A stretch of 64,000 nucleotides of DNA, from contig DATBLQ010000038.1 in the NCBI GenBank assembly GCA_036555325.1, positions 38,623 through 102,622 of the forward strand, written 5' to 3'. Below are positions 7,559-21,639 of this stretch, in pieces. The notes beneath the pieces were generated by a model, which saw only the letters and a program-made list of their open reading frames with translations, was not told the origin of the DNA and did not search any database. Source of the DNA: Aestuariivirgaceae bacterium. Its GTDB lineage: Bacteria; Pseudomonadota; Alphaproteobacteria; Rhizobiales; Aestuariivirgaceae. Position numbers and translations under genes: made by a program. The stretch's first letter is position 1. The number at the start of each line of letters is the position of its first letter.

Positions 7559-8782
7559 CTATCCCACGACACCGGCTTTTCTTAGCTTCGCAATTTCCAT
7601 TTGGTTGAGACCGAGGATCGAGGCCAAGATTTCATCGGCATCGGCATTGAGCGATGGAGCCGGCCGCTCGTAAGTGATTGCCGTTTTGGAGAATCTAATT
7701 GGATTGGCGAGGCCCGGCGTCTTTACTCCGTCGTCCCGATACAGATCGAGTTGCATCCCTCGATGACGCACTTGCGGATCGGCGAAAACTTGATCGATGG
7801 AATTCATAGGTCCGCAGGGCACCGCCGCCGCTTCGAGCGCTTCAACCCATTCCTTGGTCGTTCGCCCAAGCATGGCAGGAGAGAGGAGGCTCACGAGAGC
7901 GTCACGATTTTCGACGCGTGTGCGATTGTTGAGAAATCGCGGATCGTCGGGAAGGCCCGGTAATTCTGCGATGCGACATAGCTCGCGGAACTGACGGTCG
8001 GTTCCGACTGCGAGGATGACATGACCATCCCGGGTGGCGAAGCTTTGATAGGGAACAATGTTAGGATGGGCGTTGCCGAGGCGGGGAGGCGGCCTGCCGC
8101 TCACCAAGTAATTCAACGCTTGATTGGCGAGCACGGCGACCTGTGTATCGAGCAGGGCCAGGTCGATGTGTTGCCCTTCGCCGGTTCGCTCACGGTGGAC
8201 AAGTGCAGCCAGTATGCCTGCAACCGCATAGAGGCCGGTGAACAAATCGGCAAACGCTACGCCGCATTTCACCGGCCCGCCACCGGGCTCCGTATCGGGC
8301 TTGCCGGTGATGCTCATGATTCCGCCCATCGCCTGAATTATGAAATCGTAACCCGCGCGCTGGGCGTAGGGGCCGTCCTGGCCAAAGCCGGTTACCGAAC
8401 AGTAGATTAATGACGGGTTCTGTCCTTTAACCGTCTGGTAATCGAGGCCGTATTTCTTAAGCCCACCCACCTTGAAGTTTTCTAGCAGGATGTCCGAGCG
8501 AGCCGCGATTTTTCTTATAAGATCCTGCCCTTCAGAAGCAGTGATATCTATGGCAAGAGATTTCTTGCCCCGGTTGGTCGACAAATAATAGGCCGCATCC
8601 CCTCGGGACCCATCGGCATTCGTAATAAAGGGCGGGCCCCAGCCGCGGGTATCGTCGCCTTCACCCGGACGCTCTATCTTAATCACTTCGGCCCCGAAAT
8701 CTGCGAGCATTTGACCCGCCCAGGGAGCAGCGAGCACCCGAGACAGGTCCAAAACCCGAATGTGACCCAATGGGCCAGGCAT
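7559..8782 (-). CDS. Family III CoA-transferase (CaiB/BaiF)
   Basis: N-terminus GHIRVLDLSRVLAAPWAGQMLADFGAEVIKIERPGEGDDTRGWGPP is the signature start of CaiB/BaiF transferases. 407 aa. Confidence 0.9.
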   Translation of the reverse strand: MPGPLGHIRVLDLSRVLAAPWAGQMLADFGAEVIKIERPGEGDDTRGWGPPFITNADGSRGDAAYYLSTNRGKKSLAIDITASEGQDLIRKIAARSDILLENFKVGGLKKYGLDYQTVKGQNPSLIYCSVTGFGQDGPYAQRAGYDFIIQAMGGIMSITGKPDTEPGGGPVKCGVAFADLFTGLYAVAGILAALVHRERTGEGQHIDLALLDTQVAVLANQALNYLVSGRPPPRLGNAHPNIVPYQSFATRDGHVILAVGTDRQFRELCRIAELPGLPDDPRFLNNRTRVENRDALVSLLSPAMLGRTTKEWVEALEAAAVPCGPMNSIDQVFADPQVRHRGMQLDLYRDDGVKTPGLANPIRFSKTAITYERPAPSLNADADEILASILGLNQMEIAKLRKAGVVG

Positions 8783-8928
8783 TTGTGCACTCCTTGTTCA
8801 AACCTTTGTCCGGGCTTCTATCGGTCCCATGGGCAAAGCGCAAACGCTTGCCCGCCCAGCATCGAGAGCGCAATTTGGGGTTGGGCTGGCCCGAAAGAAA
8901 GCGGGTCGGCCATTATCGCCATTGCCCG

Positions 8929-9002
8929 CTGTCATCGAAACGTCATACTATCCGCCCACCCAATCAGAAACTGGATGAAACCAGACGTCATAAACCTGTC
9001 GT
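8929..9002 (+). promoter_or_regulatory. Two Pho-box-like sites upstream of the ABC importer
   Basis: CTGTCAT-cgaa-ACGTCAT (8929-8946) and ACGTCAT-aaac-CTGTCGT (8985-9002). Each is a pair of 7-bp direct repeats with a 4-bp spacer, as in the PhoB consensus CTGTCAT-N4-CTGTCAT. The second box ends 53 nt before ATG 9056. Confidence 0.5.
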
Positions 9003-9055
9003 GCCAAGGTGAGACCTACCCTCGACCGGGGGCAAAACCGTATCCTCGGAGGAAT

Positions 9056-10240
9056 ATGATAATGAGTAGAAGTAAAGCTTCGGCCCGCTCAAGCTTTGAA
9101 ACGATGCTGGCGGCGAGGCGCTTTAGCCGCCGAACCGTACTCAAGGCTGGCGCTGCTGCCGGTGCCATCACGATTGCTGGTCCGGCTTTTGTCAAGAACG
9201 CCCTTTCGGCTTCGGGACAGCTTAACCTTCTGATGTGGTCGGACGAATTTCCCGACCCAGTTGTTCCGAACTTCGAAAAAGCGACGGGCATCAAAGTCAA
9301 CATGACGCCGTTCTCGCAGAACGAAGAGCAGATCAACAAGCTGCAAGCCACAGGGGGCGAAGGGTTCGATCTTTGCCAACCCACGCGCGACCGCGCTCCT
9401 CAGTTCAAGGACCTGGGCGTTCTTGCGCCGTTCGACATGAACAAGGTGAAGAACACCGGAAACCTCATACCGGCAATGCTCGAAGGTTCCACCAGCCTGT
9501 GGACCTGGGAAGACGGGCTCTATCACTTGCCGCATTGCTGGGGGAGTGAGGCAATCTCTTGGCGCACCGACAAATGGCAACCCAAGGATGCCTCGCAGCT
9601 CAGCTACGGAGATTTGTGGAACGAAGAAGTGAAAGGACATGTCCAAGGGCGGCCACACTCGATGCTGCTCGGTATCGGCCTGTTTTGGGACGGGTCGGGC
9701 AAGCTGCCGTCGAACCGTATGCTCGATGCATTCAAGGATCCCGAGACCTTCAAGAAGATCTACGATCAGATTCTGCCGTTTGCCATCGAGCACAAGGCCT
9801 GGATCAAGCAATTCTGGGACTCGGCCGATAACACCAAGTCGGGACTCCTGGAGAATGACGTGTGGATTGGTCAGACTTGGGACGGCCCGGCGCTGTCGTT
9901 GAAGAAGGACGGCAAACCGGTCAACTACCAGGCTCCCAAGGAGGGTGCGATCACATGGCTCGATGGTCTTTCGATGCCGAAGGCTGCCAAGAACGTCGAC
10001 CAGATCTATGAGTTCATCAACTACCTGCACACACCGGAAGCGTCCGCAGCCGTGGCTGAGGGCTCAGGATACAATCCGGTCGTTACGGGTGCTGATGCCC
10101 TTCTGTCAGATGTGGCCAAGAAGAACTTCGCTGAAGCCTATCCTGGCGATTCGTTGAAGAACCTCTGGCATCGTCCGCCTGAGTCTTCCTGGCTTGGCGA
10201 TCTGAAGCTTGAATACGCCGATAAATTCAAGTCGGCATAA
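9056..10240 (+). CDS. ABC transporter periplasmic substrate-binding protein, PotD/PotF family, Tat signal. Putative 2-aminoethylphosphonate binding protein by context.
   Basis: GGAGGA precedes ATG 9056. Twin-arginine leader ARRFSRRTVLKAGAAAGAITIAGPAFV, then a PotD-like body. The upstream 115 codons of track ORF 8711.. cover the promoter and Pho boxes and are rejected. Confidence 0.85.
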   Translation: MIMSRSKASARSSFETMLAARRFSRRTVLKAGAAAGAITIAGPAFVKNALSASGQLNLLMWSDEFPDPVVPNFEKATGIKVNMTPFSQNEEQINKLQATGGEGFDLCQPTRDRAPQFKDLGVLAPFDMNKVKNTGNLIPAMLEGSTSLWTWEDGLYHLPHCWGSEAISWRTDKWQPKDASQLSYGDLWNEEVKGHVQGRPHSMLLGIGLFWDGSGKLPSNRMLDAFKDPETFKKIYDQILPFAIEHKAWIKQFWDSADNTKSGLLENDVWIGQTWDGPALSLKKDGKPVNYQAPKEGAITWLDGLSMPKAAKNVDQIYEFINYLHTPEASAAVAEGSGYNPVVTGADALLSDVAKKNFAEAYPGDSLKNLWHRPPESSWLGDLKLEYADKFKSA

Positions 10241-10260
10241 CCGGAAAGAAGTGAATGCCA

Positions 10261-10291
10261 GTCCGGCCCCGGCTTAGCTCCGGGGCCGGAC
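10261..10291 (+). terminator. Intercistronic perfect 12-bp GC stem-loop after the binding-protein gene (attenuator or mRNA stabiliser)
   Basis: GTCCGGCCCCGG-cttagct-CCGGGGCCGGAC, 21 nt after the stop codon. There is no T-tract, so it is probably partial termination or 3' protection rather than a full terminator. Confidence 0.5.
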
Positions 10292-10355
10292 AATTGCATT
10301 GGCGGCCGCAGGCGTATAGAAATTTCAAGTTGATCCGAGTGAGGTAGAATGGGGT

Positions 10356-11441
10356 ATGAGCGCAGACGTCGAACTTGATCACGTCACCATCAGGTTTGGC
10401 AATTTCACCGCGGTGAAGGGCGCCACGCTAAGAATCAACAACGGCGAGTTTTTCTCGTTTCTGGGACCGTCGGGCTGCGGCAAGACTACGATCCTGCGGA
10501 CCATCTCCGGGTTCCTGGAACCTTCACAAGGAACAGTCCGCATCGGCGGACAGAACATGGCCGGGATCGGCCCGAACAGGCGGCCAACGGCCCTGATTTT
10601 CCAAAATCTTGCACTGTTTCCGCTAATGAGTGTTGCGGAAAACATCACCTACGGGCTGCGCGTGCGCGGTGCGTCAAGAGAGGACCGTAAACGGCGCGGT
10701 GCCGAGTTGTTGAGCCTTATTGCTCTGCCGGATCAGGGCGACAAGCTTGTCAGCGAACTATCGGGCGGGCAGCGGCAGCGGGTTGCAATCGCCAGGGCTC
10801 TGTGCGTCGAACCCAAGGTTCTGCTGCTCGACGAGCCCCTGTCGGCGCTCGACTTGAAGCTTCGCCAGCACATGCGCAACGAGTTGCGCAACATTCAGAA
10901 ACGAGTAGGCATCACCTTCATCTACATCACGCACGATCAGGGTGAAGCGCTTACGATGTCGGACCGTATTGCGGTGATGAATGAGGGCATCATCGAGCAA
11001 ATTGGCGATGGGAAGACGATCTATGACCATCCGGAAACGGCTTTCGTCGCCAGCTTTGTTGGCGAGAACAATCCGTTCCTGGGCAAGGTCGCGCGAGCCA
11101 CTCAAAGCGAGGTTGTCATCGAGACCAAATTCGGACCGTTGCGAGGTCGAAATCCGAAGAATCTGTCGAAGGGTGACCGAGGGATACTGTTCATAAGGCC
11201 CGAGCTGTTGAGACTTGGGAACGGCACCGCCGATTCCACCCTGGAATCAACGGTTCTGAACATAGCGTTCGAAGGAAACGCCAGCCACATATTCCTCAAG
11301 GGGGCGGGCAGCAAGGAGATTACGCTGACGGTCGGCAGGCACGAGGGCGGTGCAATGCCGGAGCAGGGTGGCACTGCCAAAATTTCCTTCGACCCCTCCA
11401 TGGCCCTGGTGCTGCCGGAAGGGAAGATGGCTCGTGAATAA
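10356..11441 (+). CDS. ABC transporter ATP-binding protein (PotA-like, C-terminal TOBE-type domain)
   Basis: Walker A GPSGCGKTT, signature [15 protein letters not shown], Walker B LLLDEPLSALD, H-loop YITHDQ. Confidence 0.9.
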   Translation: MSADVELDHVTIRFGNFTAVKGATLRINNGEFFSFLGPSGCGKTTILRTISGFLEPSQGTVRIGGQNMAGIGPNRRPTALIFQNLALFPLMSVAENITYGLRVRGASREDRKRRGAELLSLIALPDQGDKLVSELSGGQRQRVAIARALCVEPKVLLLDEPLSALDLKLRQHMRNELRNIQKRVGITFIYITHDQGEALTMSDRIAVMNEGIIEQIGDGKTIYDHPETAFVASFVGENNPFLGKVARATQSEVVIETKFGPLRGRNPKNLSKGDRGILFIRPELLRLGNGTADSTLESTVLNIAFEGNASHIFLKGAGSKEITLTVGRHEGGAMPEQGGTAKISFDPSMALVLPEGKMARE

Positions 11442-12435
11442 TCGCCTGATCGTCTTCTTCATCCCGGCGGCGATTGTCATCGCTTACTTTCTGATGGCAA
11501 TGATCGAGCGGCGCGTCCTCGCGGACTCCCGCCCGACGGGGTTCGTTCAGCGCAATGGGGCGGCACTGTCACTGTTCTTTGTCGTTGCCGTTGGTTTCTG
11601 GACATTGTTCATGGTGACGCTGCCCTATCTCTACATGTTCCAGGAATCCTTCCATCCGACGCTGTGGCCGAAGGATCGCGGAGGGCCCAAAGATACGCTC
11701 ACGCTCGAGCATTACCGTTTCTTTCTGTATGGCAGTGATGGACTTGGCAACTTCACACACCTGCGGGCCTTCGTTCTAACCATCTTCATCAGCCTGTGTG
11801 TGACAATCGCCAATTTCATCCTGTGCTATCCGCTTGCCTATTACATGGCGCAATCGGCGACGACGCAAAAGGTGCGGGTTCTTCTACTGGCGCTGATAGT
11901 TCCCTATTGGGTCAACGAGATTCTACGTGCCTTCGCGTTGCGAGTCCTGCTTGCCAGCGGAGGCTTGATCAACACTGCGCTGCTGGGCATGGGCCTCATC
12001 AACGAACCCTTTGATTTTCTCGGCGCCAATATCGGCCTCTACGTGGGTCTTTCCTATGCCTATCTGCTGCTGATGGTGTTCCCTCTGTACAATGCTATCG
12101 AGAGTCTCGATCCCAATCAGATTGAAGCCGCCCGCGATCTAGGGGCCCCCTGGTGGCGCATACACAAGGACATCGTCATACCGCACGCAAAACCCGGCAT
12201 TGCATCGGGCTGTACGATGGTGTTCATGCTCTCGGCGGGCGCGCTCGCCGCGCCGCAATTCTTGGGCGGGCCGAAGACCCTGTGGTTCACTTCCATCGTT
12301 TATGATTTCTTCTTCCAGTCGTTCAATTGGGCGCGGGGATCGGCATATGCCCTGATTCTGCTGGCGGCGTGCATACTCTTCGTGATGCTGATGCTTCGCC
12401 TGTTCAAGGTGAGCCTAGGGGAAACAATCCGATGA
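11434..12435 (+). CDS. ABC transporter permease (PotB-like)
   Basis: Multi-TM protein with an EAA-type loop (IEAARDLGAPWWRIHKDIVIPHAKPG). A GTG at 11434 overlaps the ATPase stop. The track start at 11350 lies inside the ATPase gene. Confidence 0.85.
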   Translation: MNNRLIVFFIPAAIVIAYFLMAMIERRVLADSRPTGFVQRNGAALSLFFVVAVGFWTLFMVTLPYLYMFQESFHPTLWPKDRGGPKDTLTLEHYRFFLYGSDGLGNFTHLRAFVLTIFISLCVTIANFILCYPLAYYMAQSATTQKVRVLLLALIVPYWVNEILRAFALRVLLASGGLINTALLGMGLINEPFDFLGANIGLYVGLSYAYLLLMVFPLYNAIESLDPNQIEAARDLGAPWWRIHKDIVIPHAKPGIASGCTMVFMLSAGALAAPQFLGGPKTLWFTSIVYDFFFQSFNWARGSAYALILLAACILFVMLMLRLFKVSLGETIR

Positions 12436-13325
12436 GCTCGAAGTTCGTGATGCGGGCAATGATCGGATTTTATCTTGTGATCTTCTTCGCCTACCTGTTC
12501 GGCCCACTGTTTTTCATGAGCGTCACCGCATTCAACACGCCGAACTATCCGACCGCCTATCCTTTCGAACAGTTCACCTGGAAGTGGTTCGACGCCCTGT
12601 TCAAGGACCGGGACATGATGGACGGTCTACTCAATTCGGTCATCATCGGATTGGGAGTGGTTGCGCTTTCGGTGCCGATCGGCCTGGCGGCCTCGATTGT
12701 CATGCAACAGATTTATTGGCGCGCACGCGCCCTGTACTACCTCGTCACCGTATCACCGGTGTTGACGCCCGGCGTCATCATTGGCATCTCGACGGTCATC
12801 TTCTGGAAGGATTTCAGTGAGGCGATAGGACTCAAACCCTACCTGTACAAGGGGATCATTCTGGCCATCATCGGTCAATCAAGTTTTATCTGCGCTTATT
12901 GCATGCTGATCATCATGGCGAGACTTCAAAGATTCGACCGTTCACAGGAGGAAGCAGCGCTCGATCTTGGCGCCAGCTATCCGCAGGTATTCTGGCATAT
13001 TCTGGTTCCGTTCCTGAAACCGGCACTTCTTTCGGCGGCAGTCATTGCATTCCTGTCGTCGTTCGAGAACTACAACACCACGACGTTCGCAATACTGGCG
13101 GATAAAACTCTGGTGACTGTGCTGGCGGGGCGCGTTCGGCAGGGCACCACACCGGCGCTGTCGGCTTTGGCGGTCATCATTATTGCCATCTCGCTGGCAG
13201 GGGCGATTGTCTATGAACTCTTGAAACGGCGCGAAGAGCAACGGGCAGCGCGCGCCAAGGAGCAGGCGCGTCTGGCGGAACGCAGTGGAGTAGCCGCGGT
13301 GCCGGCGCTCGCGCCGGCGCGCTGA
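12432..13325 (+). CDS. ABC transporter permease (PotC-like)
   Basis: ATG 12432 overlaps the preceding TGA (ATGA). EAA loop EEAALDLGASYPQVFWHILVPFLKPA and six predicted TM helices. Confidence 0.85.
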   Translation: MSSKFVMRAMIGFYLVIFFAYLFGPLFFMSVTAFNTPNYPTAYPFEQFTWKWFDALFKDRDMMDGLLNSVIIGLGVVALSVPIGLAASIVMQQIYWRARALYYLVTVSPVLTPGVIIGISTVIFWKDFSEAIGLKPYLYKGIILAIIGQSSFICAYCMLIIMARLQRFDRSQEEAALDLGASYPQVFWHILVPFLKPALLSAAVIAFLSSFENYNTTTFAILADKTLVTVLAGRVRQGTTPALSALAVIIIAISLAGAIVYELLKRREEQRAARAKEQARLAERSGVAAVPALAPAR

Positions 13326-13363: not shown

Positions 13364-14170
13364 TCAATACCAATTGCCACGTTCGTCCTGAATTGACATT
13401 GCCGCAGGTTTGCGATCGAGGAATGCATCCAGATGCACGATGGTCCGATCGCCTGCCGCAACGACGACCGCATACATGGCCGGTTCGATGCTATAAACGG
13501 TCGGCACCGACCCACCGACCAGCGGCACCTGATGGTTGAGCGATGGCGGAGCAGCAAAAGGGATGCCGCGCCACATTCCGCTGAGCGGCCGATGCGCATG
13601 TCCAAAAAACAAATGCCGGATATTGTGATCCCTTATCGTCTGATGAAACGATTCGGGATCCTCGAGCTTGATCAAGTCCATGAGGCTGTGGCCGATGTCG
13701 AACGGCGGGTGGTGCATGAACAAATAGATCTGTCCCGCGCGTGTAGTCTCAAGCTGGCGACTTAGCCATCTGCGGCGCTTTTCACAATAGATTCCCGCTG
13801 AAGTGTTGCCGCCCTTGAAGGTATCAAGAAAGATGCACTGAATGTCGTCCACTGTGTGGGACGACTGGATAAATCCGTTGTCGTCGCAATATGCTCTACC
13901 GAAACTGCTTCTGAACACCTCCCGATCGTCGTGGTTGCCGATCAGCAGGAATGTCTTGAGCGGAAAGCGAGCGAGCCTCGACTTCAGCCCCTGATAAGAC
14001 GCAGGCTCTGCAATATCCGACAAGTCGCCGGCAATAACGCAAAAGGAAGCGTCGGCGTGATGGCGCTCGATGTCGGCAAGACACTTGTCGAAGCGATCGA
14101 GGGGATCCAAACCCCAAACCGTCGCACCGGGGACTGTCAAGTGAAGGTCGGCAATCAGGATGAACTTCAT
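13364..14170 (-). CDS. Metallophosphoesterase (class III phosphodiesterase, CpdA/GpdQ-like)
   Basis: All calcineurin-like motifs are present: ADLHL (DxH), AGDLSD (GD), GNHDD (GNHD/E), MHHPP, GHAHR (GHxH). Its ATG overlaps the stop of the upstream transporter (ATGA). Confidence 0.85.
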   Translation of the reverse strand: MKFILIADLHLTVPGATVWGLDPLDRFDKCLADIERHHADASFCVIAGDLSDIAEPASYQGLKSRLARFPLKTFLLIGNHDDREVFRSSFGRAYCDDNGFIQSSHTVDDIQCIFLDTFKGGNTSAGIYCEKRRRWLSRQLETTRAGQIYLFMHHPPFDIGHSLMDLIKLEDPESFHQTIRDHNIRHLFFGHAHRPLSGMWRGIPFAAPPSLNHQVPLVGGSVPTVYSIEPAMYAVVVAAGDRTIVHLDAFLDRKPAAMSIQDERGNWY

Positions 14171-15855
14171 ATGGTTTTCCTGTTCGCCGCCTTAAGTCGC
14201 GACTTTCGCAAGAGGCCGGCCGCGTCGACGATCGGATATGCAGCGGAAACGACATGCGAGTTGATCGTATGGAAATCGCGGATCAAGTCGACAAACAGGG
14301 CGCCGCGCCTCAACGACCGTCCTTTCGGACCGGGGGCGCGGAATTGGTCGCGGATGATTTTGTTCTCGATTGTCCGAAACAATCCTTTCTGCTCGATCAA
14401 CCGCCTGGCGCCGGCAATGTCACCGGAACCAAACACCCCCGATGCGAGCTTGAGGCTTTCGCACACTAAGTCGGCGAGTTTGTCCAGAGCAGCGCTTTCG
14501 GCGGGCGAAAAGCTTATGTTCTCCTTGATCTTCGACTTCACTCGGTCGGCGAGGCTCAAATGGATGATGTCGCCGGCATGCTCCAGGTTGCTCACATAAA
14601 GCATTGTTTCGAGTGCCCGCTTGCTATCTTCCGCCGAGAGTTCATTTCGAGTCAGCTCCGCCACATAGGCCTGAATGTCGCTTTGATAGCCATTGAGCCG
14701 CTCGTCGAGCAGTCGAATGCTTTTGAGACCATCAACCTTGTTGGCCTTGAGTGCTTCTACCGCGGTGCGGAACATGCGATCGAGCAATTCGGCCATGCGA
14801 ACAGTCTCCAGGGAGGCGTTCGATAGCGCAACGCTTGGGGAGTCAAATGCGCCACGATCCAGATAGCGTGGCTTGATAAGCGGATCTTCGGCGGCCTTCT
14901 TGTCAGGCAAAAGCTTTTCTGTGGCTTTTACGATCAAGCCGAGAAATGGGAGGCAAGCGACCGCCAGGCAGATATTGAAGGCAAGATGGGCGACGAGAAC
15001 CCGATGCACCGGATCGCCGGACATCGTATCGATCGAGGCTGAGATTTGCGGCAGAAAGGGGAGCAGCACTCCGGCGCCAATGGCGCGGCAAATCAGATTT
15101 GCCAGCGGCATGCGTCGAGCCGCGGGCTCAAACTCCATGGTGGACATCATTGCGGGCAGTCCACCGCCAAAATTGACACCGAGCACGAACGCCATGGCAC
15201 CGGCAACCTCCAGACTGCCGTTGGCCACGAACGAGGCAATCAAGAGGATGATTGCGAGGCTGGAATAGCTGAGCCAGGTGACAAGTGCGCCGATCAGGAA
15301 GGCCAGCAAGTGCTCTGATCCAAGGGTGGATAATACATTGTGGAACAGAGTTGCCTCGCGCAGCGGCGAAGTGGCGGAGGTAACAAGCTTGAGGGCCAAC
15401 AACATGAGTCCGAGGCCCATGAGGATGCGGCCGATATTGCGGAGCTTGAAGTCGCTTGAAGCGCTGAACAGCACATAGCCGGCAAACAGCAGCAGGGGCG
15501 ATAGCCAAAGTGACAAGATGGCGCCACCGGTCGCGAAGGCAGCCGATACTATGGCCGAACCAACGTCGGAACCGAGCAGCACCGCCAGGCCCCGCGCCGC
15601 CTCCAGAGTGCCTGCGGCTGCGAGTCCGGTGATGATTAGCGCCGTCGCGGTGCCGCTTTGTAACAGAACCGTTGCACCAATACCTGCAAGGAGCGAGGTT
15701 AGCCGGTTGGTCAGGTGAGTCTCGATAAACCGCTTCAGACGTTCTCCCCACGCCCGCAAGATGCCGGTGCGCACCATGCGTACGCCCCACAAAAGCAGTG
15801 TTACGCTGCCTAGCAAATTAACGATGACAAGTGTGCCGGGGCTTAGGAGATCCAT
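14167..15855 (-). CDS. Na/Pi-cotransporter family protein with C-terminal PhoU-like repeats (YjbB/NptA type)
   Basis: The N-terminal half is polytopic (LLGSVTLLLWGVRMVRTGILRAWG...). The C-terminal half is soluble and helical with PhoU-like repeats (NLEHAGDIIH). AGGAAA lies 5 nt before ATG 15855. The track start at 15900 would overlap phnY. Confidence 0.85.
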   Translation of the reverse strand: MDLLSPGTLVIVNLLGSVTLLLWGVRMVRTGILRAWGERLKRFIETHLTNRLTSLLAGIGATVLLQSGTATALIITGLAAAGTLEAARGLAVLLGSDVGSAIVSAAFATGGAILSLWLSPLLLFAGYVLFSASSDFKLRNIGRILMGLGLMLLALKLVTSATSPLREATLFHNVLSTLGSEHLLAFLIGALVTWLSYSSLAIILLIASFVANGSLEVAGAMAFVLGVNFGGGLPAMMSTMEFEPAARRMPLANLICRAIGAGVLLPFLPQISASIDTMSGDPVHRVLVAHLAFNICLAVACLPFLGLIVKATEKLLPDKKAAEDPLIKPRYLDRGAFDSPSVALSNASLETVRMAELLDRMFRTAVEALKANKVDGLKSIRLLDERLNGYQSDIQAYVAELTRNELSAEDSKRALETMLYVSNLEHAGDIIHLSLADRVKSKIKENISFSPAESAALDKLADLVCESLKLASGVFGSGDIAGARRLIEQKGLFRTIENKIIRDQFRAPGPKGRSLRRGALFVDLIRDFHTINSHVVSAAYPIVDAAGLLRKSRLKAANRKTI

Positions 15856-15887: not shown

Positions 15888-17348
15888 CTAAGCCGGCCAT
15901 GGCAATGAATAGGTCTTCACGTTGGTGAAGAACTTCATCGCTTCCAGTACTCCTTCTTTTACACCATTGCCTGAATCCTTAATGCCGCCGAAGGGCGACA
16001 TCTCGGTGCGATACCCCGGCACTTCCCATATGTTGACGCTGCCCACGTTGAGGCAGTCGACATAGCGTGTAATTCGATCCAGGCGGTTGGTGCATACTCC
16101 CGATGAAAGTCCGAAAGAGGTCGAATTGGAGATTCTTATGACCTCGTCGTCGTCGCCCGCCACCCGTATCATCGGTATGACCGGACCAAAAGTCTCCTGA
16201 AGGACGAGTTCACAATCATAAGGTACGTGATCGAGGGTGATTGGGGGGAGAATCGCTCCCTTGCGTCCAGGATGGTAGAGGATTTTGGCGTCATGCCTGG
16301 CTGCATCCTCCACCCGCCGCTCGATGGCAATGGCCGCCTTTTCGTCCACGACGGTGCCGAGATCGGTGTGCGGATCCATTGGATCGCCGAATTTTATGTC
16401 CTTGGCTTTTTGCAGTACGTGGCGGGCGAACTGGTCGGCAACTTTCTGCATGACGAGGATGCGTTTCACCGCAGTGCAACGCTGTCCGGAATTCTTCGTT
16501 GCGCCTTTCACCGCAAGGTCGGCGGCCCTTTCCAAATCCTCCGGAGAAAGATCATCGCACACTATCAGCGGATCATTGCCGCCCAGCTCGAGAGCGGCCC
16601 GCTTATACCCTGCCTTGTTGGCGATGATTTTCCCAACGCTTACGCCACCTGTGAAGGTGATAACCTCGACATGGGGATTGGTGACCATCTCGTCGCCGAT
16701 GTCACTCGGCCAACCGGTGACCACCTGAAACATCTCAGGCGGCAGTCCCGCTTCGTAGAGGATATCGGCCAGCGCCAAGGCCGTGAGGGGAGTGGCTTCG
16801 GCGGGCTTGCATACCACGCAATTGTTGGTGGCGATGGCAGGAGCCACCTTGTGAGCCACCATGTTGAGCGGATGGTTAAAGGGTGTGATGGCTGAAATCG
16901 TCTGCACCGGATGGCGTTTTGTATAGATCTTCCGCGCCTTTCCGTGAGGCGTCACATCACAGGAAAAAATCTGACCATCGTCGAGGATTGCAAGTTGACC
17001 TGCAAGAGTGAACACGTCATGGGCGCGGCCGCACTCGTAGAGCGAGTCCTTTTTCGATATGCCAAGTTCAAGCGTGATGAGATCGGATAACGCCTCCTTG
17101 CGTTGTTCGATGAACTCAGCCGTCTTGAACAGGATGCGCTGGCGCTCGTAACGTGAAAGTTTCGATCTAAATCCGGCGGCGATGGCGAAGGCACTGCGCA
17201 CATGCTCCGGCCTCCCGGCGGGAACGGTGCCGACCATTTCATTGGTATATGGATAGAACACGGGAATGACTGCTTCGGCAGTTACCTTCTTGCCGCCAAC
17301 CCGCATGGATTCCGTAAGAACGGTGCGCTTAGGCTCGATCCGGCTCAT
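15888..17348 (-). CDS. phnY: Aldehyde dehydrogenase, probable phosphonoacetaldehyde dehydrogenase
   Basis: ALDH superfamily motifs (ELGGNDP, catalytic [17 protein letters not shown]-like QETFGPV). It lies 9 nt downstream of phnA in the phnW-phnA-phnY order. Confidence 0.8.
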
Positions 17349-17357
17349 GCGTCCTGC

Positions 17358-18626
17358 CTATTCCGCGGCTGCGGCGAATTCCGCAATGTGGTTGCAGCCA
17401 ATAGCAAATGCATCGAAATTGCGAAGATTTTTGTGCAAACCGACAGTCTTACGGTTGGTGATAATCGGAATTTCCTGTTCGCTCAGTCCGCCGTGCGATC
17501 GAAGCGGCTCTGTCAGAGCCGACAGATTGTGGTTGGTGCGCCGCGATCCAATAACCTTGGTTGCCGAGGCGCCACCAGATATTACGACAAGATCTCCGAT
17601 ACGATCTTCGGGCAAATCGAACCGCCGGCTGGCCGACTTGCGGTCCAGCACCACATCAATTCCTTGCATGTGCCTCACCGCTGCCGCCACTTCATCGAGC
17701 TGCACGCCCTTGAGATAAACGGTGGCAAACGACCCGAGTGCCCCGTGATGCAATACATAAGGATCGGTGATGGGTAAGATGACCTGGGTGGTGTCACTGC
17801 CGAACAGCTTGTCCAACTCGTCCTGCAGATAAAGGACATCCGGTTCCCCATTGGCAAGATGCTTGTCCTTCATGCCGTGATCGGCGGTGATGACGACTAC
17901 GGCGCCCGCCTCGTCGAGCTGGCATAGATAACGATCAAGCATCAGGTAGAATTCATTGGCGCCCGCAGAACCCGGCGGAAATTTGTGTTGAATGTAGTCC
18001 GTGGTGGAAAGATACATGAGATCGGGGCGCTTCAGCCTGAGCAATTTCACTCCGGCAGCGAGCACGAACTCGGAAAGCCCGGCGGAATAAACTTCCGGCA
18101 CCGGCATGCCGGCAAATTCGCACACATCGGCGATGCCGTTGGCGGTCATGGTTGCTTTGTTCGCCTGCTCGGAGGAAAAGCAAATGGCCGTCCCATCGAA
18201 CACAAGCCCTTTTCCAAGCAGCAGCCGCAATTTGTCTTTGGCGGTGATCACCGCCACCGTGGCGCCGGCTTGCTGAAATTCCGCAAATATCGTCGGCGCG
18301 CGCAGCCACTTCGGATCGTTCATCATGACTTCATGGCCGGTCTGCGGATCGATGAAATAGTTCCCGCAAATACCGTGCCATGATGGCGGCCGTCCGGTGA
18401 CGATCGACAGATTGTTGGGGTTGGTGAAACTCGGCATTGCTGACGTGCCGCGCAGATTTTCACCACTAGCGATGATATTCCGCAAATTGGGCATGAGCCC
18501 GGCGTCCATGGCCAATTCCATGTAAGCGGGCTCGCTGCCATCGCAGCACACAACGACAAGAGGCTGAGCGGGCCAGCGGTAATCACGGCCGTTCACGGTT
18601 ACGGTTCTTGGTTTCTGTCTGGCCAT
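17358..18626 (-). CDS. phnA: Phosphonoacetate hydrolase (alkaline-phosphatase superfamily)
   Basis: Motifs I recall from characterised PhnA enzymes: VVVCCDGSEPAY, PSFTNPNNLSIVTGRPPSWHGICGNYF, MYLSTTDYIQHK, ITADHGM, LPITDPYVLHHGALGSFATVYL, RFDLPEDRIGDLVV, PLRSHGGLSEQEIP. Confidence 0.9.
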   Translation of the reverse strand: MARQKPRTVTVNGRDYRWPAQPLVVVCCDGSEPAYMELAMDAGLMPNLRNIIASGENLRGTSAMPSFTNPNNLSIVTGRPPSWHGICGNYFIDPQTGHEVMMNDPKWLRAPTIFAEFQQAGATVAVITAKDKLRLLLGKGLVFDGTAICFSSEQANKATMTANGIADVCEFAGMPVPEVYSAGLSEFVLAAGVKLLRLKRPDLMYLSTTDYIQHKFPPGSAGANEFYLMLDRYLCQLDEAGAVVVITADHGMKDKHLANGEPDVLYLQDELDKLFGSDTTQVILPITDPYVLHHGALGSFATVYLKGVQLDEVAAAVRHMQGIDVVLDRKSASRRFDLPEDRIGDLVVISGGASATKVIGSRRTNHNLSALTEPLRSHGGLSEQEIPIITNRKTVGLHKNLRNFDAFAIGCNHIAEFAAAAE

Positions 18627-18629
18627 TCG

Positions 18630-19751
18630 CTATTCGTCAGAGACAGCCGGCGTCATGTCTCTAACGCCCATCTCACGCAAACAATCACGCACGGCATCGA
18701 CCAGCGCTTGCATGACTTTCGGATCAACCTGGCCGATATTGCCTATCCTGAAGCTCGGTCGCTGAGTGAGTTTTCCGGGATAAATTACGAAACCGCGCGA
18801 TTTCAGCCCATCGTAGAAGCGCTGAAAGTCGAACTTGCGATCGCGGGGGGTAAGGAACGTTTGGATGATCGGACCCGCATCTTCAGGCGCAAGAAGGGTA
18901 TGAAAGCCGAGACGCCGCATACCGGCAATGAGGGTGTCGCGATTTCTCACATAGCGGGCCAGGCGACCGGCAAGCCCGCCCTCCTTATCGTGCTCTTTCA
19001 GTGCTTGGTAAAAGGCAACCAAGGTATGGGTCGGCGGCGTGTAACGAAACTGGCCGGTCTTCTCCATATGTTGCCATTGATCGAACAGATCGAGAGACAA
19101 TGAATGGCATCGATCCTTCGATGCCTTCAGCAAGTCCCACCGGCTCAATACATAAGCGAAACCCGGCACACCCTCGAGACACTTATTGGCCGAGGAAACC
19201 ACCACGTCGATTCCAAGCGCGGCTGTTTCAATCGGTATGGCACCGAATGAGCTCATGGCATCGAGGATCAGAGTGCGGTCGTGTTTCTTGACAGCGGTAG
19301 CTATGTCCCGCATCGGATTGACCAGACCGGAGGTCGTTTCACAGTGAACAAGAAAAACCATCGATATGCCTGGATCATCCTCCAGCGCGTGTTCAATATC
19401 TGCTAGCTTTGGCCTTTCGTCGTCGGCATATCGCAGCACGACGTGCGGTCGGTTCAACCGCTCCATGATCTTGATGGCACGCTCTCCATAGGCGCCATTG
19501 CTGATCATCAGCAGCTTGCGTCTGCCGATCGGGGCAAAACCTCCCAGAGCTGCTTCAATTGCGAAGGTTCCGGAACCTTGCATGAGCACACAGGTGTAAT
19601 TCTCATCGCAACCAGCCAACTTCAAAAGGCGACGGCGGATATCGGATACGATAAATTTCAGTTCCTGGTCCCAGGAGCCCCAATCAGCCAACATGGCGAA
19701 CTTGACCCCGCGGGAGGTGGTGAGCGGCCCAGGAGTAAGAAGATAGGGCAT
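18630..19751 (-). CDS. phnW: 2-aminoethylphosphonate--pyruvate transaminase
   Basis: N-terminus MPYLLTPGPLTTSRGVKFAMLADWGSWD and a class-V aminotransferase body (SSANKCLEGVPG PLP-lysine region). An alternative upstream ATG at 19811 adds 20 aa that are probably not conserved. Confidence 0.9.
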   Translation of the reverse strand: MPYLLTPGPLTTSRGVKFAMLADWGSWDQELKFIVSDIRRRLLKLAGCDENYTCVLMQGSGTFAIEAALGGFAPIGRRKLLMISNGAYGERAIKIMERLNRPHVVLRYADDERPKLADIEHALEDDPGISMVFLVHCETTSGLVNPMRDIATAVKKHDRTLILDAMSSFGAIPIETAALGIDVVVSSANKCLEGVPGFAYVLSRWDLLKASKDRCHSLSLDLFDQWQHMEKTGQFRYTPPTHTLVAFYQALKEHDKEGGLAGRLARYVRNRDTLIAGMRRLGFHTLLAPEDAGPIIQTFLTPRDRKFDFQRFYDGLKSRGFVIYPGKLTQRPSFRIGNIGQVDPKVMQALVDAVRDCLREMGVRDMTPAVSDE

Positions 19752-19852
19752 ATCTTCCTGGCCTTCGGGGCCGGTAACTTTGCGCTTAGGTGGCCGAACG
19801 ACTACAACCATTGGTTTTTCCGATTCGAAACTCCATATGCGGTTTCCGGACT

Positions 19853-19890
19853 TTATAAGTCAAATCGGTTCTGATTATGTATTATATAAG
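19853..19890. promoter_or_regulatory. AT-rich candidate LysR-binding region between phnW and the LysR gene
   Basis: TTATAAGTCAAATCGGTTCTGATTATGTATTATATAAG contains an imperfect dyad (ATAAGTCA...TGATTAT) and repeated TATAAG, in the only AT-rich stretch of the divergent spacer. Confidence 0.3.
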
Positions 19891-19904
19891 CTAGGCAGAT
19901 ATAT

Positions 19905-20762
19905 ATGAGTTACGCACAGCTGAAAGCATTCCATGCCGTTGCCGCGAGCGGCGGATTTTCCAAAGCGGCCCACAAACTCAATGTGACTCAACCGGCTCTA
20001 TCCGACCATGTGCGCAAGCTGGAATCAGCCTATGGGGTGGAACTTTTCTCACGTACGAGGCGAAAGGTGGATCTTACCGATCTCGGTCGGCAGCTTTTTG
20101 CTCTCACGGAGCGCCAATTCGAGGCTGAGGCGCAGGCCATCGAACTCCTAAGTCGCGCGCAAGGTCTCAGGCAGGGGCTCATCTCGATTGGCGCGGATGC
20201 GGCTGTCCATGCCTTGCCGCTTATCAAGAGATTCAACGAGCGCTATCCGCGCGTCGAACTCAAGCTGATTACGGGCAATACGGTCCGCCTTATCAACCAG
20301 CTAGAGAAACTGGAGATCGATTTCGCCGTGGTGGCGGAGGTGCCATCTTCGGAGATCTTCTTTGCCTGCAAGGTCCGAGAAGACCCACTTGTGTGCATAC
20401 TGGCGCAAAATCACCCGCTGTCGCGAAGGAAAAAACTTCTGTTTGATGACCTGTTGCAAACCGCACTGGTCCTGCGCGAAAGAGGTTCGGTCACGCGCGC
20501 CCTTTTTGAAGGCGAGGCAAGCAGACGCGGAGCACGGCCCAGACAGGTAATTGAAATTGAGGGCAGGGAAGCCGCAAACGAGGCGGTAGCCCAAGGACTC
20601 GGCGCCGGCATCGTATCGCGCGGAGAGCTGCCGCATGACGAAAGACTGCGCGCAATCGCCGTGGCGGATTGGCGCGAAACAATGCAGGAATGGCTCGTAT
20701 GCCTTAAGGCGCGCGCCGATCTTCATATCATGCGTGCATTCTTGCAGTTGCTGGCATCTTGA
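19905..20762 (+). CDS. LysR-family transcriptional regulator, divergent from phnW (PhnR-like by position)
   Basis: wHTH MSYAQLKAFHAVAASGGFSKAAHKLNVTQPALSDHVRKLE plus a LysR effector domain. Confidence 0.9.
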   Translation: MSYAQLKAFHAVAASGGFSKAAHKLNVTQPALSDHVRKLESAYGVELFSRTRRKVDLTDLGRQLFALTERQFEAEAQAIELLSRAQGLRQGLISIGADAAVHALPLIKRFNERYPRVELKLITGNTVRLINQLEKLEIDFAVVAEVPSSEIFFACKVREDPLVCILAQNHPLSRRKKLLFDDLLQTALVLRERGSVTRALFEGEASRRGARPRQVIEIEGREAANEAVAQGLGAGIVSRGELPHDERLRAIAVADWRETMQEWLVCLKARADLHIMRAFLQLLAS

Positions 20763-20793
20763 GAACAGATCATCGGTTGGCTATCCTCGACCC

Positions 20794-21639
20794 ATGGCAA
20801 ATGCATTCATAGCTGCCTGTGTCCAGAACTCGGCGACCCCCGATATCCATAAGGATATTGCAACTTGTCTGCGGCTGATCGAGCGAGGAGCCGCGGCAGG
20901 AGCGAATTTCATCGCGCTTCCGGAATACTGTGTCGGCCTAAACACCAAGGATGGGCTTCTCTATCCGTTGGCGTTTGAAGAGCGAAAGCACCCCGCCATC
21001 CCCGCCTTTGCGGAAGCGGCCCGCAAATATGGATGCTGGCTGCTCATAGGGTCAATTGCGGTGAAGGCTTCTGACGGACGCATCTTGAACCGTGCGCTCA
21101 TGCTCGACAAAGAGGGCACAATCATCGCGCGCTACGACAAGCTGCACCTGTTCGATGTCAACTTGGGAGAAGGCCAAGTCTACCGCGAGAGCGCCACCAT
21201 CGCTCCCGGCAGCCAAGCCGTGCTGTCGCCTTGCATGGGAAGCGTTATCGGCCTGTCAATTTGCTACGACTTGCGGTTCGCAGCACTTTACCGCGCCTAT
21301 GCGCAGGCCGGGGCGGAGCTGCTGGCGATACCGGCAGCCTTCACGAAGACGACGGGAGAAGCCCACTGGCATGTGCTGAATCGCGCGCGTGCCATCGAAA
21401 CCGGCAGCTTTGTGATCTCTCCATGCCAGTATGGAACGTTGGCGGGGGGCTCCCAGTGCTACGGGCATTCGCTGATCGTCAATCCCTGGGGGCGAATTCT
21501 TGCCGACGGCGGAGACGGCGAGGGTGTGATCACGGCCGACATCGATCTTCGCATGGTGGTTGAAACGCGAAAGCGCATTCCTTCGCTCCTGCATGACCGC
21601 CCGTTCACCCTTGCATCGTTACAGCAAGCGGCGGAGTGA
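20794..21639 (+). CDS. Carbon-nitrogen hydrolase (nitrilase superfamily)
   Basis: Glu-Lys-Cys triad contexts ALPEY, YDKLHLFD and LSICYDLRF. ATG 20794 gives MANAFIAACVQN. The track start at 20635 overlaps the LysR gene. Confidence 0.85.
   Translation: MANAFIAACVQNSATPDIHKDIATCLRLIERGAAAGANFIALPEYCVGLNTKDGLLYPLAFEERKHPAIPAFAEAARKYGCWLLIGSIAVKASDGRILNRALMLDKEGTIIARYDKLHLFDVNLGEGQVYRESATIAPGSQAVLSPCMGSVIGLSICYDLRFAALYRAYAQAGAELLAIPAAFTKTTGEAHWHVLNRARAIETGSFVISPCQYGTLAGGSQCYGHSLIVNPWGRILADGGDGEGVITADIDLRMVVETRKRIPSLLHDRPFTLASLQQAAE

What the first reader, a model, noticed from the sequence alone, without database searches (positions are those of the whole stretch)
14167..15855. Na/Pi-cotransporter-PhoU fusion embedded in a C-P cleavage operon
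Seen: a polytopic NptA-like N-terminal half fused to a soluble PhoU-like helical half, placed between phnY and the phosphoesterase.

Established: the same architecture occurs in E. coli YjbB, which has been reported to promote Pi export.

Inference: when AEP is used as a C or N source under LysR (not Pho) control, stoichiometric Pi is released, and a Pi overflow exporter would make sense. Alternatively it could import phosphonoacetate or Pi analogues. Either role would be a new accessory function for this pathway.
Basis: partly seen in the sequence, partly recalled or inferred. Interest (0 to 1): 0.6.

Follow-up and report, generated by a model that had tools for sequence, protein, structure and literature searches.

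The report
Phosphate transporter inside a phosphonate-breakdown operon
A YjbB-type phosphate transporter with a built-in PhoU regulatory domain sits inside an operon that splits phosphate off 2-aminoethylphosphonate (AEP). Comparison with other genomes suggests it handles, and probably lets out, the freed phosphate rather than importing the phosphonate, but the direction of transport is untested.

Summary
Window 14167-15855 (- strand) encodes a 562-aa protein with two Na_Pi_cotrans repeats and a complete PhoU domain. It lies 32 nt after phnY and overlaps a metallophosphoesterase gene by 4 nt (ATGA). The operon is phnW-phnA-phnY-npt-MPE, divergent from a LysR gene.

The protein aligns end to end with E. 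coli YjbB (31% identity). It is the only SLC34-type gene in a 99.6%-complete genome that has pst-phoU-phoBR but no Pit.

Among 401 Alphaproteobacteria, 82% of phnA-positive genomes carry a homologue, against 15% of the rest. Homologues lie beside AEP genes in 9 family codes, in many different arrangements, and the tree needs at least 6-7 gains or losses of this linkage.

The same transporter type also sits in a phnW-phnX (phosphonatase) operon, beside inositol-monophosphatase genes, and in the agrocinopine-linked arc operon of Ti plasmids. In two small genomes without it, a split PhoU_div + Pit pair takes its place in the phn cluster. The shared element is phosphate, not AEP or phosphonoacetate.

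The linkage was already noted for S. meliloti and read there as AEP uptake. Export is the best reading (about 0.5) but unproven. This is a new member of a known kind, of moderate interest.

The parts
14167..15855 (-). YjbB-type SLC34-related transporter fused to PhoU (562 aa)
   Evidence: Pfam PF02690 x2 and PF01895. 31% identity end to end with E. coli YjbB. AlphaFold2 model with mean pLDDT 87.7. It is the only PF02690 gene in the genome.
14911..15855 (-). Membrane transport domain (residues 1-315), two inverted Na_Pi_cotrans repeats
   Evidence: Helices 6-315 in the model. Motifs are Q66-S-G-T / G95-S-D-V-G-S in repeat 1 and S196-Y-S-S-L / G226-V-N-F-G-G in repeat 2. Repeat 1 aligns to the QSSS hairpin of SLC34A2.
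14221..14856 (-). Cytoplasmic PhoU domain (residues 334-545), six-helix bundle
   Evidence: Foldseek finds full-length PhoU crystal structures 1t8b, 1t72 and 4q25: TM 0.82-0.89 normalised to the target, rmsd 2-3 A over 204-217 columns. E425-x3-D429 is invariant and D523-x3-D527 is at least 90% conserved.
13364..14170 (-). Metallophosphoesterase, translationally coupled (ATGA overlap) to the transporter gene
   Evidence: Pfam Metallophos. NCBIfam SpdA-like, 231 bits, under the cut-off of 400. It lies directly downstream of the transporter in L001-L003, L006, L098, L099 and L100.
15888..17348 (-). phnY, phosphonoacetaldehyde dehydrogenase
   Evidence: TIGR03250, 767 bits, cut-off 636. The stop codon is 32 nt before the transporter start.
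17358..18626 (-). phnA, phosphonoacetate hydrolase (the step that releases Pi)
   Evidence: TIGR02335, 513 bits, cut-off 408.
18630..19811 (-). phnW, AEP-pyruvate transaminase
   Evidence: TIGR02326, 479 bits, cut-off 401.
19812..19904 (.). Divergent AT-rich control region between phnW and the LysR gene
   Evidence: Sequence read. No Pho-box-like match here. No sigma-70 consensus hit and no convincing terminator inside the operon.
19905..20762 (+). LysR-family regulator of the AEP-catabolism-associated type
   Evidence: Best NCBIfam hit is TIGR03339 phn_lysR, 311 bits, under its cut-off of 341. A divergent LysR is conserved in L003, L006, L098-L100 and in most unrelated phn loci.
8711..13325 (+). 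PotD/PhnT2-like ABC importer (binding protein, ATPase, two permeases) convergent on the operon; the likely AEP importer
   Evidence: NCBIfam PhnT2 343.7 bits (under cut-off 457.7) and PotB/PotI/PotD-like. Conserved next to the operon in L002, L003 and L099.

Best explanation
The gene encodes a YjbB-family secondary phosphate transporter whose cytoplasmic PhoU domain gates it. It is co-transcribed with phnWAY from the LysR-controlled promoter.

When AEP is imported by the neighbouring ABC system and used as a nitrogen or carbon source, PhnA releases one Pi per AEP inside the cell. This happens whatever the cell's phosphorus need. The transporter then acts as an overflow valve that lets the surplus Pi out, and the PhoU domain opens or closes it according to cytoplasmic Pi.

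Shown here: the domain architecture, the operon position, the conservation, and the repeated recruitment of this transporter type (or of a split PhoU_div + Pit pair) to operons that release Pi in the cytoplasm.

Inferred: Pi as the substrate, outward direction, gating by PhoU, and induction by AEP.
For: 1. Operon structure. There are 32 nt between the phnY stop and the start codon, and an ATGA overlap with the next gene. No promoter or terminator consensus lies between them.

2. Conserved operon. The five-gene unit with divergent LysR is found at 75-78% identity (L002, L003) and at 55-58% identity in other genera (L006, L098, L099, L100).

3. Co-occurrence in 401 Alphaproteobacteria. 31 of 38 phnA+ genomes have a homologue, against 55 of 363 phnA- genomes (odds ratio 25, p 5e-17). 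By genus it is 22/28 against 42/280.

4. Physical linkage. Of 71 homologue loci, 13 lie within four genes of phnW, phnA or phnX, in 9 family codes and many gene orders: first gene, last gene, divergent, or directly after phnW. The tree needs at least 6-7 changes of the 'phn-linked' label, against 16.4 for shuffled labels.

5. Not specific to phosphonoacetate. L047 carries LysR / phnW-phnX-npt-phnS2T2U2, with PhnX at 307 bits (cut-off 220), in a genome without phnA.

6. Not specific to phosphonates. An inositol-monophosphatase-family gene lies next to the transporter in 7 chromosomal loci (one with IolG) and on a Leisingera plasmid. The Ti-plasmid arc operon, divergent from the agrocinopine acc operon (phosphodiesterase plus IMPase-family phosphatase), carries one. 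A NUDIX gene follows it in L101.

7. Replacement by an unrelated family. In two small phnA+ genomes that lack the gene, a PhoU_div (PF01865) + PHO4/Pit (PF01384) pair lies directly upstream of phnA (L090) or near phnW (L094).

8. Transport-site motifs are the same in phn-linked and other members.

9. Published experiments. YjbB over-expression lowers polyP and activates PhoBR in Pi-rich medium, and YjbB does not support Pi uptake (PMC11389368 citing Motomura 2011; PMC13170248). Bacteria growing on 2AEP as N source export Pi, and no exporter is named (PMC8316502).

10. A separate ABC importer accompanies the operon here and in most linked loci.
Against: - No transport or expression data exist for this protein or any phn-linked homologue.
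- The YjbB export evidence comes from over-expression. A close architectural relative, S. aureus NptA with a PhoU domain, is an importer (PMC13170248).
- This genome has no Pit, so the gene could also be its only low-affinity Pi importer.
- One homologue is followed by a gene for PhoX, which I take to act outside the cytoplasm. That fits uptake.
- About 40 of 71 homologue loci show no phosphorus-related neighbour.
- The window's own clade sits on a long branch (1.28 changes per column) with altered core motifs (QSGT; Gln replaced by Gly in L006 and L042), so a changed specificity is not excluded.
- The published reading of the S. meliloti gene is AEP uptake.
Confidence: 0.5

Rival explanations
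1. It is a PhoU-regulated Pi transporter that works mainly inward or in both directions, like Pit. Alternatively, its main role is signalling: the PhoU domain reports the Pi made from AEP to PhoR/PhoB so that the Pho regulon is tuned while organophosphorus is catabolised.
For: - The genome has pst-phoU-phoBR but no Pit, so this is the only other Pi carrier.
- In S. aureus the PhoU domain of NptA modulates PhoPR, and NptA imports Pi (PMC13170248).
- A PhoX alkaline phosphatase gene follows a homologue in L021.
- The replacement module PhoU_div + Pit belongs to a family that I know as reversible carriers. The Salmonella study lists PitA among routes of Pi export.
Against: - Importing Pi while the same operon releases Pi in the cytoplasm has no obvious benefit.
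- Across 401 genomes the gene is not a Pit substitute: Pit is present in 24 of 86 genomes with the transporter and in 98 of 315 without it.
- E. coli YjbB is reported as not sufficient for Pi import (PMC13170248).
- The family has lost repeat-2 residues matching Ser434 and Thr465 of SLC34A2, and the TS-TNT/TTTT Na+-site motifs of the importers (the repeat-2 mapping is by motif analogy).
Confidence: 0.27
2. It is a Na+-coupled importer of AEP (the published suggestion for the S. meliloti gene), of phosphonoacetate, or of another Pi analogue.
For: - Review PMC10574752 states that co-occurrence with AEP genes 'strongly suggests' AEP uptake.
- Phosphonoformate binds the SLC34A2 Pi site as an inhibitor (preprint 10.64898/2026.05.25.727688), so phosphonates can occupy such a pocket.
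- The window's clade has diverged core motifs.
Against: - The same transporter type is linked to operons with no phosphonate substrate: IMPase/IolG modules and the agrocinopine arc/acc region.
- phn-linked members are scattered through the family tree and share the family-wide motifs.
- A Pit + PhoU_div pair replaces it in two phn clusters.
- Dedicated ABC importers are present in most linked clusters.
- Linkage to phnW-phnX without phnA rules out a role specific to phosphonoacetate.
- Phosphonoformate traps SLC34A2 in the outward-open state.
Confidence: 0.12
3. The position is a historical accident: a housekeeping YjbB-like gene that happens to lie in the operon, with no functional tie to the pathway.
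For: About 40 of 71 homologue loci have no phosphorus-related neighbours. E. coli yjbB sits between metH and pepE.
Against: - Linkage appears in 9 family codes with different gene orders.
- The chance that a given gene lies within 10 kb of another in a 3.5-4.5 Mb genome is about 0.5%. Ten or more of 30 such cases has p about 1e-15.
- Co-occurrence odds ratio is 25.
- The gene is translationally coupled within the operon.
Confidence: 0.04

Closest known systems
E. coli / Salmonella YjbB (b4020), 'putative inorganic phosphate export protein'
   Same: - Collinear two-repeat Na_Pi_cotrans domain plus C-terminal PhoU domain; 31% identity over 537 residues.
- The same degenerate second-repeat motif, S-Y-S-S-L-A.
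- It falls inside the same family in the tree.
   Different: - YjbB is a stand-alone gene between metH and pepE. The window's gene is an internal member of a catabolic operon.
- The first repeat reads QSGT here and QSSN in YjbB.
- The second PhoU motif is D-x3-D here and G-x3-D in YjbB.
Na/Pi cotransporter family gene of the S. meliloti pSymB phn operon ('putative sodium-dependent symporter' WP_010975820 in strain 1021; Borisova 2011, review PMC10574752)
   Same: The same protein family inside a LysR-controlled phnWAY cluster (L040, from strain ABS7: LysR< npt> phnW> phnA> phnY> phnS2T2U2>).
   Different: - Only 34% identical, and in a different clade of the tree.
- It is the first gene of the operon rather than the fourth, and no metallophosphoesterase follows.
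- The literature reads it as an AEP importer and it has not been tested.
S. aureus NptA (SLC34-type Pi importer with a PhoU domain) and vertebrate SLC34A1-3
   Same: Inverted-repeat Na_Pi_cotrans fold. Repeat 1 aligns to the QSSS hairpin of SLC34A2. A fused PhoU domain is also present in S. aureus NptA.
   Different: - The canonical QSSS is not kept in either repeat here. The Firmicute homologue L086, used here as a stand-in for the S. aureus type (my assumption, not checked), keeps both.
- The TS-TNT and TTTT Na+-site motifs of SLC34A2 are not recognisable.
- Similarity to SLC34A2 is only E 0.001 over 60 residues.
PitR (PhoU_div) + PitA pairs
   Same: The functional layout is the same: a secondary Pi carrier plus a PhoU-like regulator. 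Such a pair occupies the equivalent place in phn clusters L090 and L094.
   Different: An unrelated transporter fold (PHO4), with the regulator as a separate protein.
AepP (GlpT-like carrier needed for Pi-insensitive growth on 2AEP in P. putida BIRD-1, related to organophosphate:Pi antiporters; PMC8316502)
   Same: A secondary carrier encoded with AEP catabolic genes. If it works as an antiporter, as its GlpT relationship suggests, it could also let Pi out during Pi-insensitive growth (my inference).
   Different: It belongs to the major facilitator superfamily and takes up AEP. No GlpT-like gene occurs in any of the loci examined here.

Membership tests
YjbB-type NptA-PhoU fusion (Na_Pi_cotrans x2 + PhoU) | Two PF02690 repeats in the membrane domain | tested here: met
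   Pfam finds two stretches, 128.5 bits. Whole-genome search gives two hits in one frame, 97.4 and 45 bits.
YjbB-type NptA-PhoU fusion (Na_Pi_cotrans x2 + PhoU) | Complete C-terminal PhoU domain (two three-helix repeats with E/D-x3-D motifs) | tested here: met
   PF01895 60.6 bits; TIGR02135 aligns over residues 361-518 of the 577-aa form. The model superposes on PhoU crystal structures, TM 0.82-0.89. E425-x3-D429 and D523-x3-D527 are conserved.
YjbB-type NptA-PhoU fusion (Na_Pi_cotrans x2 + PhoU) | End-to-end homology to E. coli YjbB | tested here: met
   31% identity over 537 residues, E 1e-80.
YjbB-type NptA-PhoU fusion (Na_Pi_cotrans x2 + PhoU) | Second-repeat motif H/Y-S-S-(L/V) in place of QSSS. 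This is a feature proposed here from the alignment, not an established criterion. | tested here: met
   The window has S-Y-S-S-L-A, identical to YjbB. 77 of 80 family members have H or Y, or occasionally S, T, A or V, at this position. The Firmicute homologue has QSSS.
YjbB-type NptA-PhoU fusion (Na_Pi_cotrans x2 + PhoU) | NCBIfam TIGR00704 'Na/Pi-cotransporter II-related' above its cut-off | tested here: not met
   196.9 bits against a cut-off of 210.1. The broader NF037997 passes (128 against 50).
YjbB-type NptA-PhoU fusion (Na_Pi_cotrans x2 + PhoU) | Pi export activity | not testable with these tools
   Needs transport or polyP assays.
Canonical SLC34 / NptA Na+:Pi symporter (importer) | QSSS motif in both re-entrant hairpins | tested here: not met
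   Repeat 1 is Q-S-G-T and repeat 2 is Y-S-S-L. The defining residues are taken from the SLC34A2 structure preprint.
Canonical SLC34 / NptA Na+:Pi symporter (importer) | Na+-site motifs TS-TNT (TM2) and TTTT (TM5) | tested here: not met
   The window has G-S-D-V-G-S-A-I-V-S-A and G-V-N-F-G-G-G-L-P at the matching places. The repeat-2 mapping is by motif analogy, not by structural superposition.
PhnWAY pathway operon (AEP to phosphonoacetaldehyde to phosphonoacetate to acetate + Pi) | PhnW, PhnY and PhnA equivalogs together | tested here: met
   All three score above the NCBIfam equivalog cut-offs.
PhnWAY pathway operon (AEP to phosphonoacetaldehyde to phosphonoacetate to acetate + Pi) | AEP-associated LysR regulator (TIGR03339) | tested here: inconclusive
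   It is the best hit, but 311 bits is under the cut-off of 341. The divergent LysR is conserved in relatives.
Known AEP transporters (PhnSTUV / PhnS2T2U2, AepXVW, AepSTU, AepP) | Homology to an ABC system or to a GlpT-like MFS carrier | tested here: not met
   The protein has only Na_Pi_cotrans and PhoU domains. No GlpT-like gene was found in any locus.

The most novel reading that the evidence does not exclude
PhoU-gated phosphate carriers may be a general, so far unrecognised accessory module of operons that release Pi from organophosphorus compounds inside the cell. They occur fused (SLC34-type YjbB family) or split (PhoU_div + Pit). The operons concerned are phnWAY, phnWX, IMPase/inositol modules and agrocinopine catabolism. 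These carriers would be the unidentified exporters behind the Pi release seen when bacteria mineralise AEP regardless of Pi supply.
Probability: 0.4. Interest if true: 0.7.

Novelty: new member of a known kind. Interest (0 to 1): 0.5.

Why it matters
Bacteria growing on 2-aminoethylphosphonate as a nitrogen source release phosphate to the medium. This is thought to regenerate phosphate in the ocean and in soil (PMC8316502). That paper names no exporter for organisms that lack the AepP carrier.

Bacterial phosphate export in general is poorly understood. YjbB is known only from over-expression experiments.

If the phn-linked YjbB-family genes are the outlet, they give a concrete gene to delete in tractable strains such as S. 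meliloti 1021. They also give a marker for 'phosphate-releasing' as opposed to 'phosphate-scavenging' phosphonate use in metagenomes. And they would correct the current annotation-level guess that these genes import AEP.

Tried and rejected
- **Borisova 2011.** The paper (JBC; PMC3121374) is not held. Its content is known only through the 2023 review.
- **S. meliloti locus tags.** A search for guessed tags found nothing.
- **Complementarity with AepP.** The idea was that clusters with a GlpT-like carrier should lack the gene. It could not be tested, because tblastn with E. coli GlpT found no such gene in any fetched locus.
- **Pit substitute idea.** Rejected as a general rule. Pit frequency is 28% in genomes with the transporter and 31% in those without.
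- **Fold search of the transport domain.** Only the PhoU half matched solved structures. The SLC34A2 entries (9z60 and others) found by sequence did not appear in the fold library, so repeat-2 residues were mapped by motif only.
- **Pho box.** No match in the phnW-lysR spacer. The window-wide count is no higher than chance: 5 found, 4.2 expected.
- **First home-made gene caller.** It picked antisense shadow ORFs in high-GC loci. It was replaced by a codon log-odds caller retrained on each locus. Key neighbours were confirmed with Pfam or NCBIfam.
- **Supplementary proteomics of PMC8316502.** These gave no usable entry for a Stappia homologue.
Full report
**1. What is in the window**

On the minus strand, five genes run head to tail:
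- phnW, 18630-19811 (TIGR02326, 479 bits, cut-off 401).
- phnA, 17358-18626 (TIGR02335, 513 bits, cut-off 408).
- phnY, 15888-17348 (TIGR03250, 767 bits, cut-off 636).
- The gene in question, 14167-15855.
- A metallophosphoesterase, 13364-14170.

A LysR gene (19905-20762) is divergent from phnW. Its best hit is the AEP-associated TIGR03339 model, at 311 bits against a cut-off of 341. A PotD/PhnT2-like ABC importer (8711-13325, + strand) converges on the operon end.

The longest ORF of the transporter starts at 15900. The ATG at 15855 is the real start. It has an AGGAAA motif 6-11 nt upstream, and all 120 listed homologues are 554-568 aa. That leaves 32 nt after the phnY stop, and the stop overlaps the next start as ATGA. 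No sigma-70 consensus or convincing terminator lies between the genes. Co-transcription is therefore likely, but it is not shown.

**2. What the protein is**

- Pfam finds two Na_Pi_cotrans repeats and a PhoU domain.
- An AlphaFold2 model built on 40 homologues has mean pLDDT 87.7. It shows a helical membrane domain (residues 6-315) and a helical C-terminal domain (334-545).
- The C-terminal domain superposes on full-length PhoU crystal structures: 1t8b, 1t72 and 4q25, TM 0.82-0.89, rmsd 2-3 A.
- The protein aligns end to end with E. coli YjbB, 31% identity over 537 residues. RefSeq calls YjbB a putative phosphate export protein.
- By sequence, the only solved relatives of the membrane half are the new SLC34A2 structures. 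The match is weak, E 0.001 over the first re-entrant hairpin.

The SLC34A2 preprint (10.64898/2026.05.25.727688) says Pi is held by the serines of two QSSS motifs plus Thr192 and Thr465. It says the Na+ sites use the TS-TNT and TTTT motifs. I compared these with an 80-sequence alignment:
- The alphaproteobacterial and E. coli family has QSST / GA(D/N)VGT in repeat 1.
- It has (H/Y)SS(L/V) / GANLGG in repeat 2.
- A Firmicute homologue keeps QSSS in both repeats.
- The window protein reads QSGT / GSDVGS and SYSSL / GVNFGG. The repeat-2 motif is identical to that of YjbB.

This places it on the YjbB side of the family, not with the canonical Na+:Pi importers. The repeat-2 residue mapping is by motif analogy only.

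**3. Genome background**

The assembly is 3.8 Mb and 99.6% complete. It has exactly one Na_Pi_cotrans gene, this one. It carries a phoR-pst-phoU-phoB cluster on contig 53 and has no Pit/PHO4 gene by tblastn or by HMM.

**4. Is the position conserved?**

Close relatives in Aestuariivirgaceae (75-78% identity) have the same gene order. So do four of five sampled homologues at 55-58% identity from other genera. Each has LysR / phnW-phnA-phnY-npt-Metallophos. The fifth has a NUDIX gene overlapping the transporter stop instead.

**5. How general is the link?**

In an even sample of 401 alphaproteobacterial genomes:
- 38 have PhnA.
- 86 have a homologue at E <= 1e-30.
- 31 have both. That is 82% of phnA+ genomes against 15% of the rest (odds ratio 25, p 5e-17). 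By genus it is 22/28 against 42/280.

I fetched 71 homologue loci and mapped the neighbours by tblastn and a gene caller, with Pfam or NCBIfam checks. The neighbours within four genes were:
- **phnW, phnA or phnX:** 13 loci, in 9 family codes and many orders.
  - Directly after phnA (L007).
  - Divergent from phnA (L008, L012).
  - After the LysR gene (L009, L011).
  - Directly after phnW, with phnA-phnY 12-19 kb away (L015, L017, L018, L022).
  - At the end of phnWAY-ABC (L010).
  - S. meliloti pSymB, fetched separately from the plasmid collection, has it as the first gene of the operon (L040).
- **Phosphonate-type ABC importers only (PhnS2T2U2 or PhnCDE-like):** 8 loci.
- **An inositol-monophosphatase-family gene:** 7 loci.
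- **A PehA-like ester hydrolase:** 2 loci.
- **PhoX:** 1 locus.
- **No phosphorus-related neighbour:** about 40 loci.

On a maximum-likelihood tree, the window protein lies in a well-supported clade of ten. Nine of these are phn-linked. The phn-linked label as a whole needs at least 6-7 changes, against 16.4 for shuffled labels. E. coli YjbB falls inside the same family.

**6. Which substrate does the context point to?**

Four observations separate the hypotheses.

(a) L047, from a genome without phnA, has LysR / phnW-phnX-npt-phnS2T2U2. PhnX scores 307 bits against a cut-off of 220. Phosphonoacetate is not an intermediate of that pathway.

(b) The transporter is also paired with cytoplasmic phosphatases that have nothing to do with phosphonates:
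- IMPase plus an ABC importer, in one case with IolG (447 bits against 355).
- IMPase-npt-ABC on a Leisingera plasmid.
- On nopaline-type Ti plasmids it is in the arc operon, next to sucrose phosphorylase and traR. That operon is divergent from the acc operon, which imports agrocinopines and encodes a glycerophosphodiester-type phosphodiesterase and an IMPase-family phosphatase.

(c) The transport-site motifs of phn-linked members are the family consensus.

(d) In two small genomes (1.4 and 1.6 Mb, different family codes) that have phnA but no homologue, the phn cluster instead carries a PhoU_div (PF01865, 80-81 bits) + PHO4/Pit (PF01384, 201-209 bits) gene pair. The pair lies 99 nt upstream of phnA in L090 and 1.2 kb upstream of phnW in L094.

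Two unrelated Pi-carrier families, each with a PhoU-type partner, occupy the same place. This is hard to explain unless the pathway needs a regulated phosphate carrier. The element common to all these operons is Pi produced in the cytoplasm.

**7. Direction**

Direction is inferred, not shown.

For export:
- YjbB over-expression depletes polyP and switches on PhoBR in Pi-rich medium. YjbB is listed with GlpT and PitA as an efflux route (PMC11389368, citing Motomura 2011).
- YjbB is reported as not sufficient for Pi import (PMC13170248).
- Bacteria growing on 2AEP as N source export Pi, including Stappia, which lacks the AepP carrier (PMC8316502).
- Importing Pi while releasing it inside makes little sense.
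- The family has lost several importer Na+-site motifs.

Against export:
- S. aureus NptA, which also has a PhoU domain, imports Pi.
- This genome lacks Pit.
- One homologue sits next to PhoX.

The gene is not a general substitute for Pit. Pit is found in 28% of genomes with the transporter and 31% without.

**8. Prior knowledge**

The 2023 review PMC10574752 states the following, citing Borisova et al. 2011. The S. meliloti 1021 phnWAY operon also encodes 'a putative sodium-dependent symporter (WP_010975820)'. This co-occurrence is retained in related species, 'strongly suggesting' AEP uptake. I confirmed that the pSymB gene is a Na/Pi cotransporter family protein.

The linkage is therefore known. 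The function has not been tested, and the evidence above favours phosphate over AEP. I found no paper that proposes these genes as the Pi outlet.

**9. Verdict**

- The protein is a new member of the YjbB family, sitting in a conserved five-gene AEP operon.
It rests on comparative genomics and on over-expression work in enterobacteria.
- The rival readings are a bidirectional or signalling Pi carrier (about 0.27), phosphonate uptake (about 0.12) and accidental position (about 0.04).
- Interest is moderate. The protein family and the linkage are known. The analysis turns an open question, who exports Pi during Pi-insensitive AEP mineralisation, into a one-gene deletion experiment.

Noticed in passing
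L090:7813-9544 and L094:1329-3050: A PhoU_div (DUF47, PitR-like) + PHO4/Pit gene pair lies inside phnA/phnW clusters of two small (1.4-1.6 Mb) alphaproteobacterial genomes that lack the SLC34-PhoU gene. It looks like a replacement by an unrelated family.
   Followed up: partly
L041:7992-9644 (A. tumefaciens pTi, NZ_CP048521.1): Nopaline-type Ti plasmids carry a YjbB-family gene in the arc operon (hypothetical gene, Na/Pi cotransporter, sucrose phosphorylase, traR). The operon is divergent from accR and the agrocinopine acc operon. 136 Agrobacterium plasmid records match the query.
   Followed up: partly
L060:8055-16117, also L062, L065, L068, L069, L083, L043: A recurrent module: an IMPase-family phosphatase next to the transporter, usually with a PhnS2T2U2-type ABC importer, and in L060 with inositol 2-dehydrogenase. 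The 'putative AEP' ABC family may import another organophosphate here.
   Followed up: partly
window 13364-14170; L094:5991-6782; L009:7551-8198: The metallophosphoesterase is co-conserved with the transporter throughout the window's clade. A homologue (35% identity) also sits in a phn cluster without the transporter. Its substrate is unknown; NCBIfam SpdA-like scores 231 bits, under the cut-off of 400.
   Followed up: partly
window 8929-9002: Two Pho-box-like sites (2 and 3 mismatches to CTGTCAT-N4-CTGTCAT), 56 bp apart, lie upstream of the likely true start of the ABC binding-protein gene. There are none in the phnW-lysR spacer. The window-wide count equals the chance expectation.
   Followed up: partly
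window 20635-21639; L003:2223-3065; L099:1050-1901: A carbon-nitrogen hydrolase (nitrilase-superfamily) gene lies directly beside the LysR gene in the window and in two relatives. Its role in the cluster is unknown.
   Followed up: no
L021:9690-11612; L101:8694-9179; L026, L027 and L013: Other phosphohydrolase genes lie directly next to homologues of the transporter: PhoX alkaline phosphatase (528 bits), a NUDIX hydrolase overlapping the stop codon, and PehA-like sulfatase-family esterases (596 bits, under the cut-off of 900).
   Followed up: no
L025, L028, L035: In three genomes of two family codes the transporter gene converges on or follows molybdate ABC genes. ModB was confirmed on the L025 representative (239 bits, cut-off 183).
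   Followed up: no
L006, L042 (residues matching Q66 of the window protein): In the Aestuariivirga sp. and Ensifer canadensis members of the window's clade, the Gln of the first QSSx motif is replaced by Gly (LGSSTAM / LGSATAM). The clade sits on a long branch of 1.28 changes per column.
   Followed up: no
L044:5123-9632 (Rahnella aquatilis plasmid): A YjbB-family gene lies directly downstream of mgtA (Mg2+ P-type ATPase). This is of interest given the published link between Pi assimilation and Mg2+ homeostasis.
   Followed up: no
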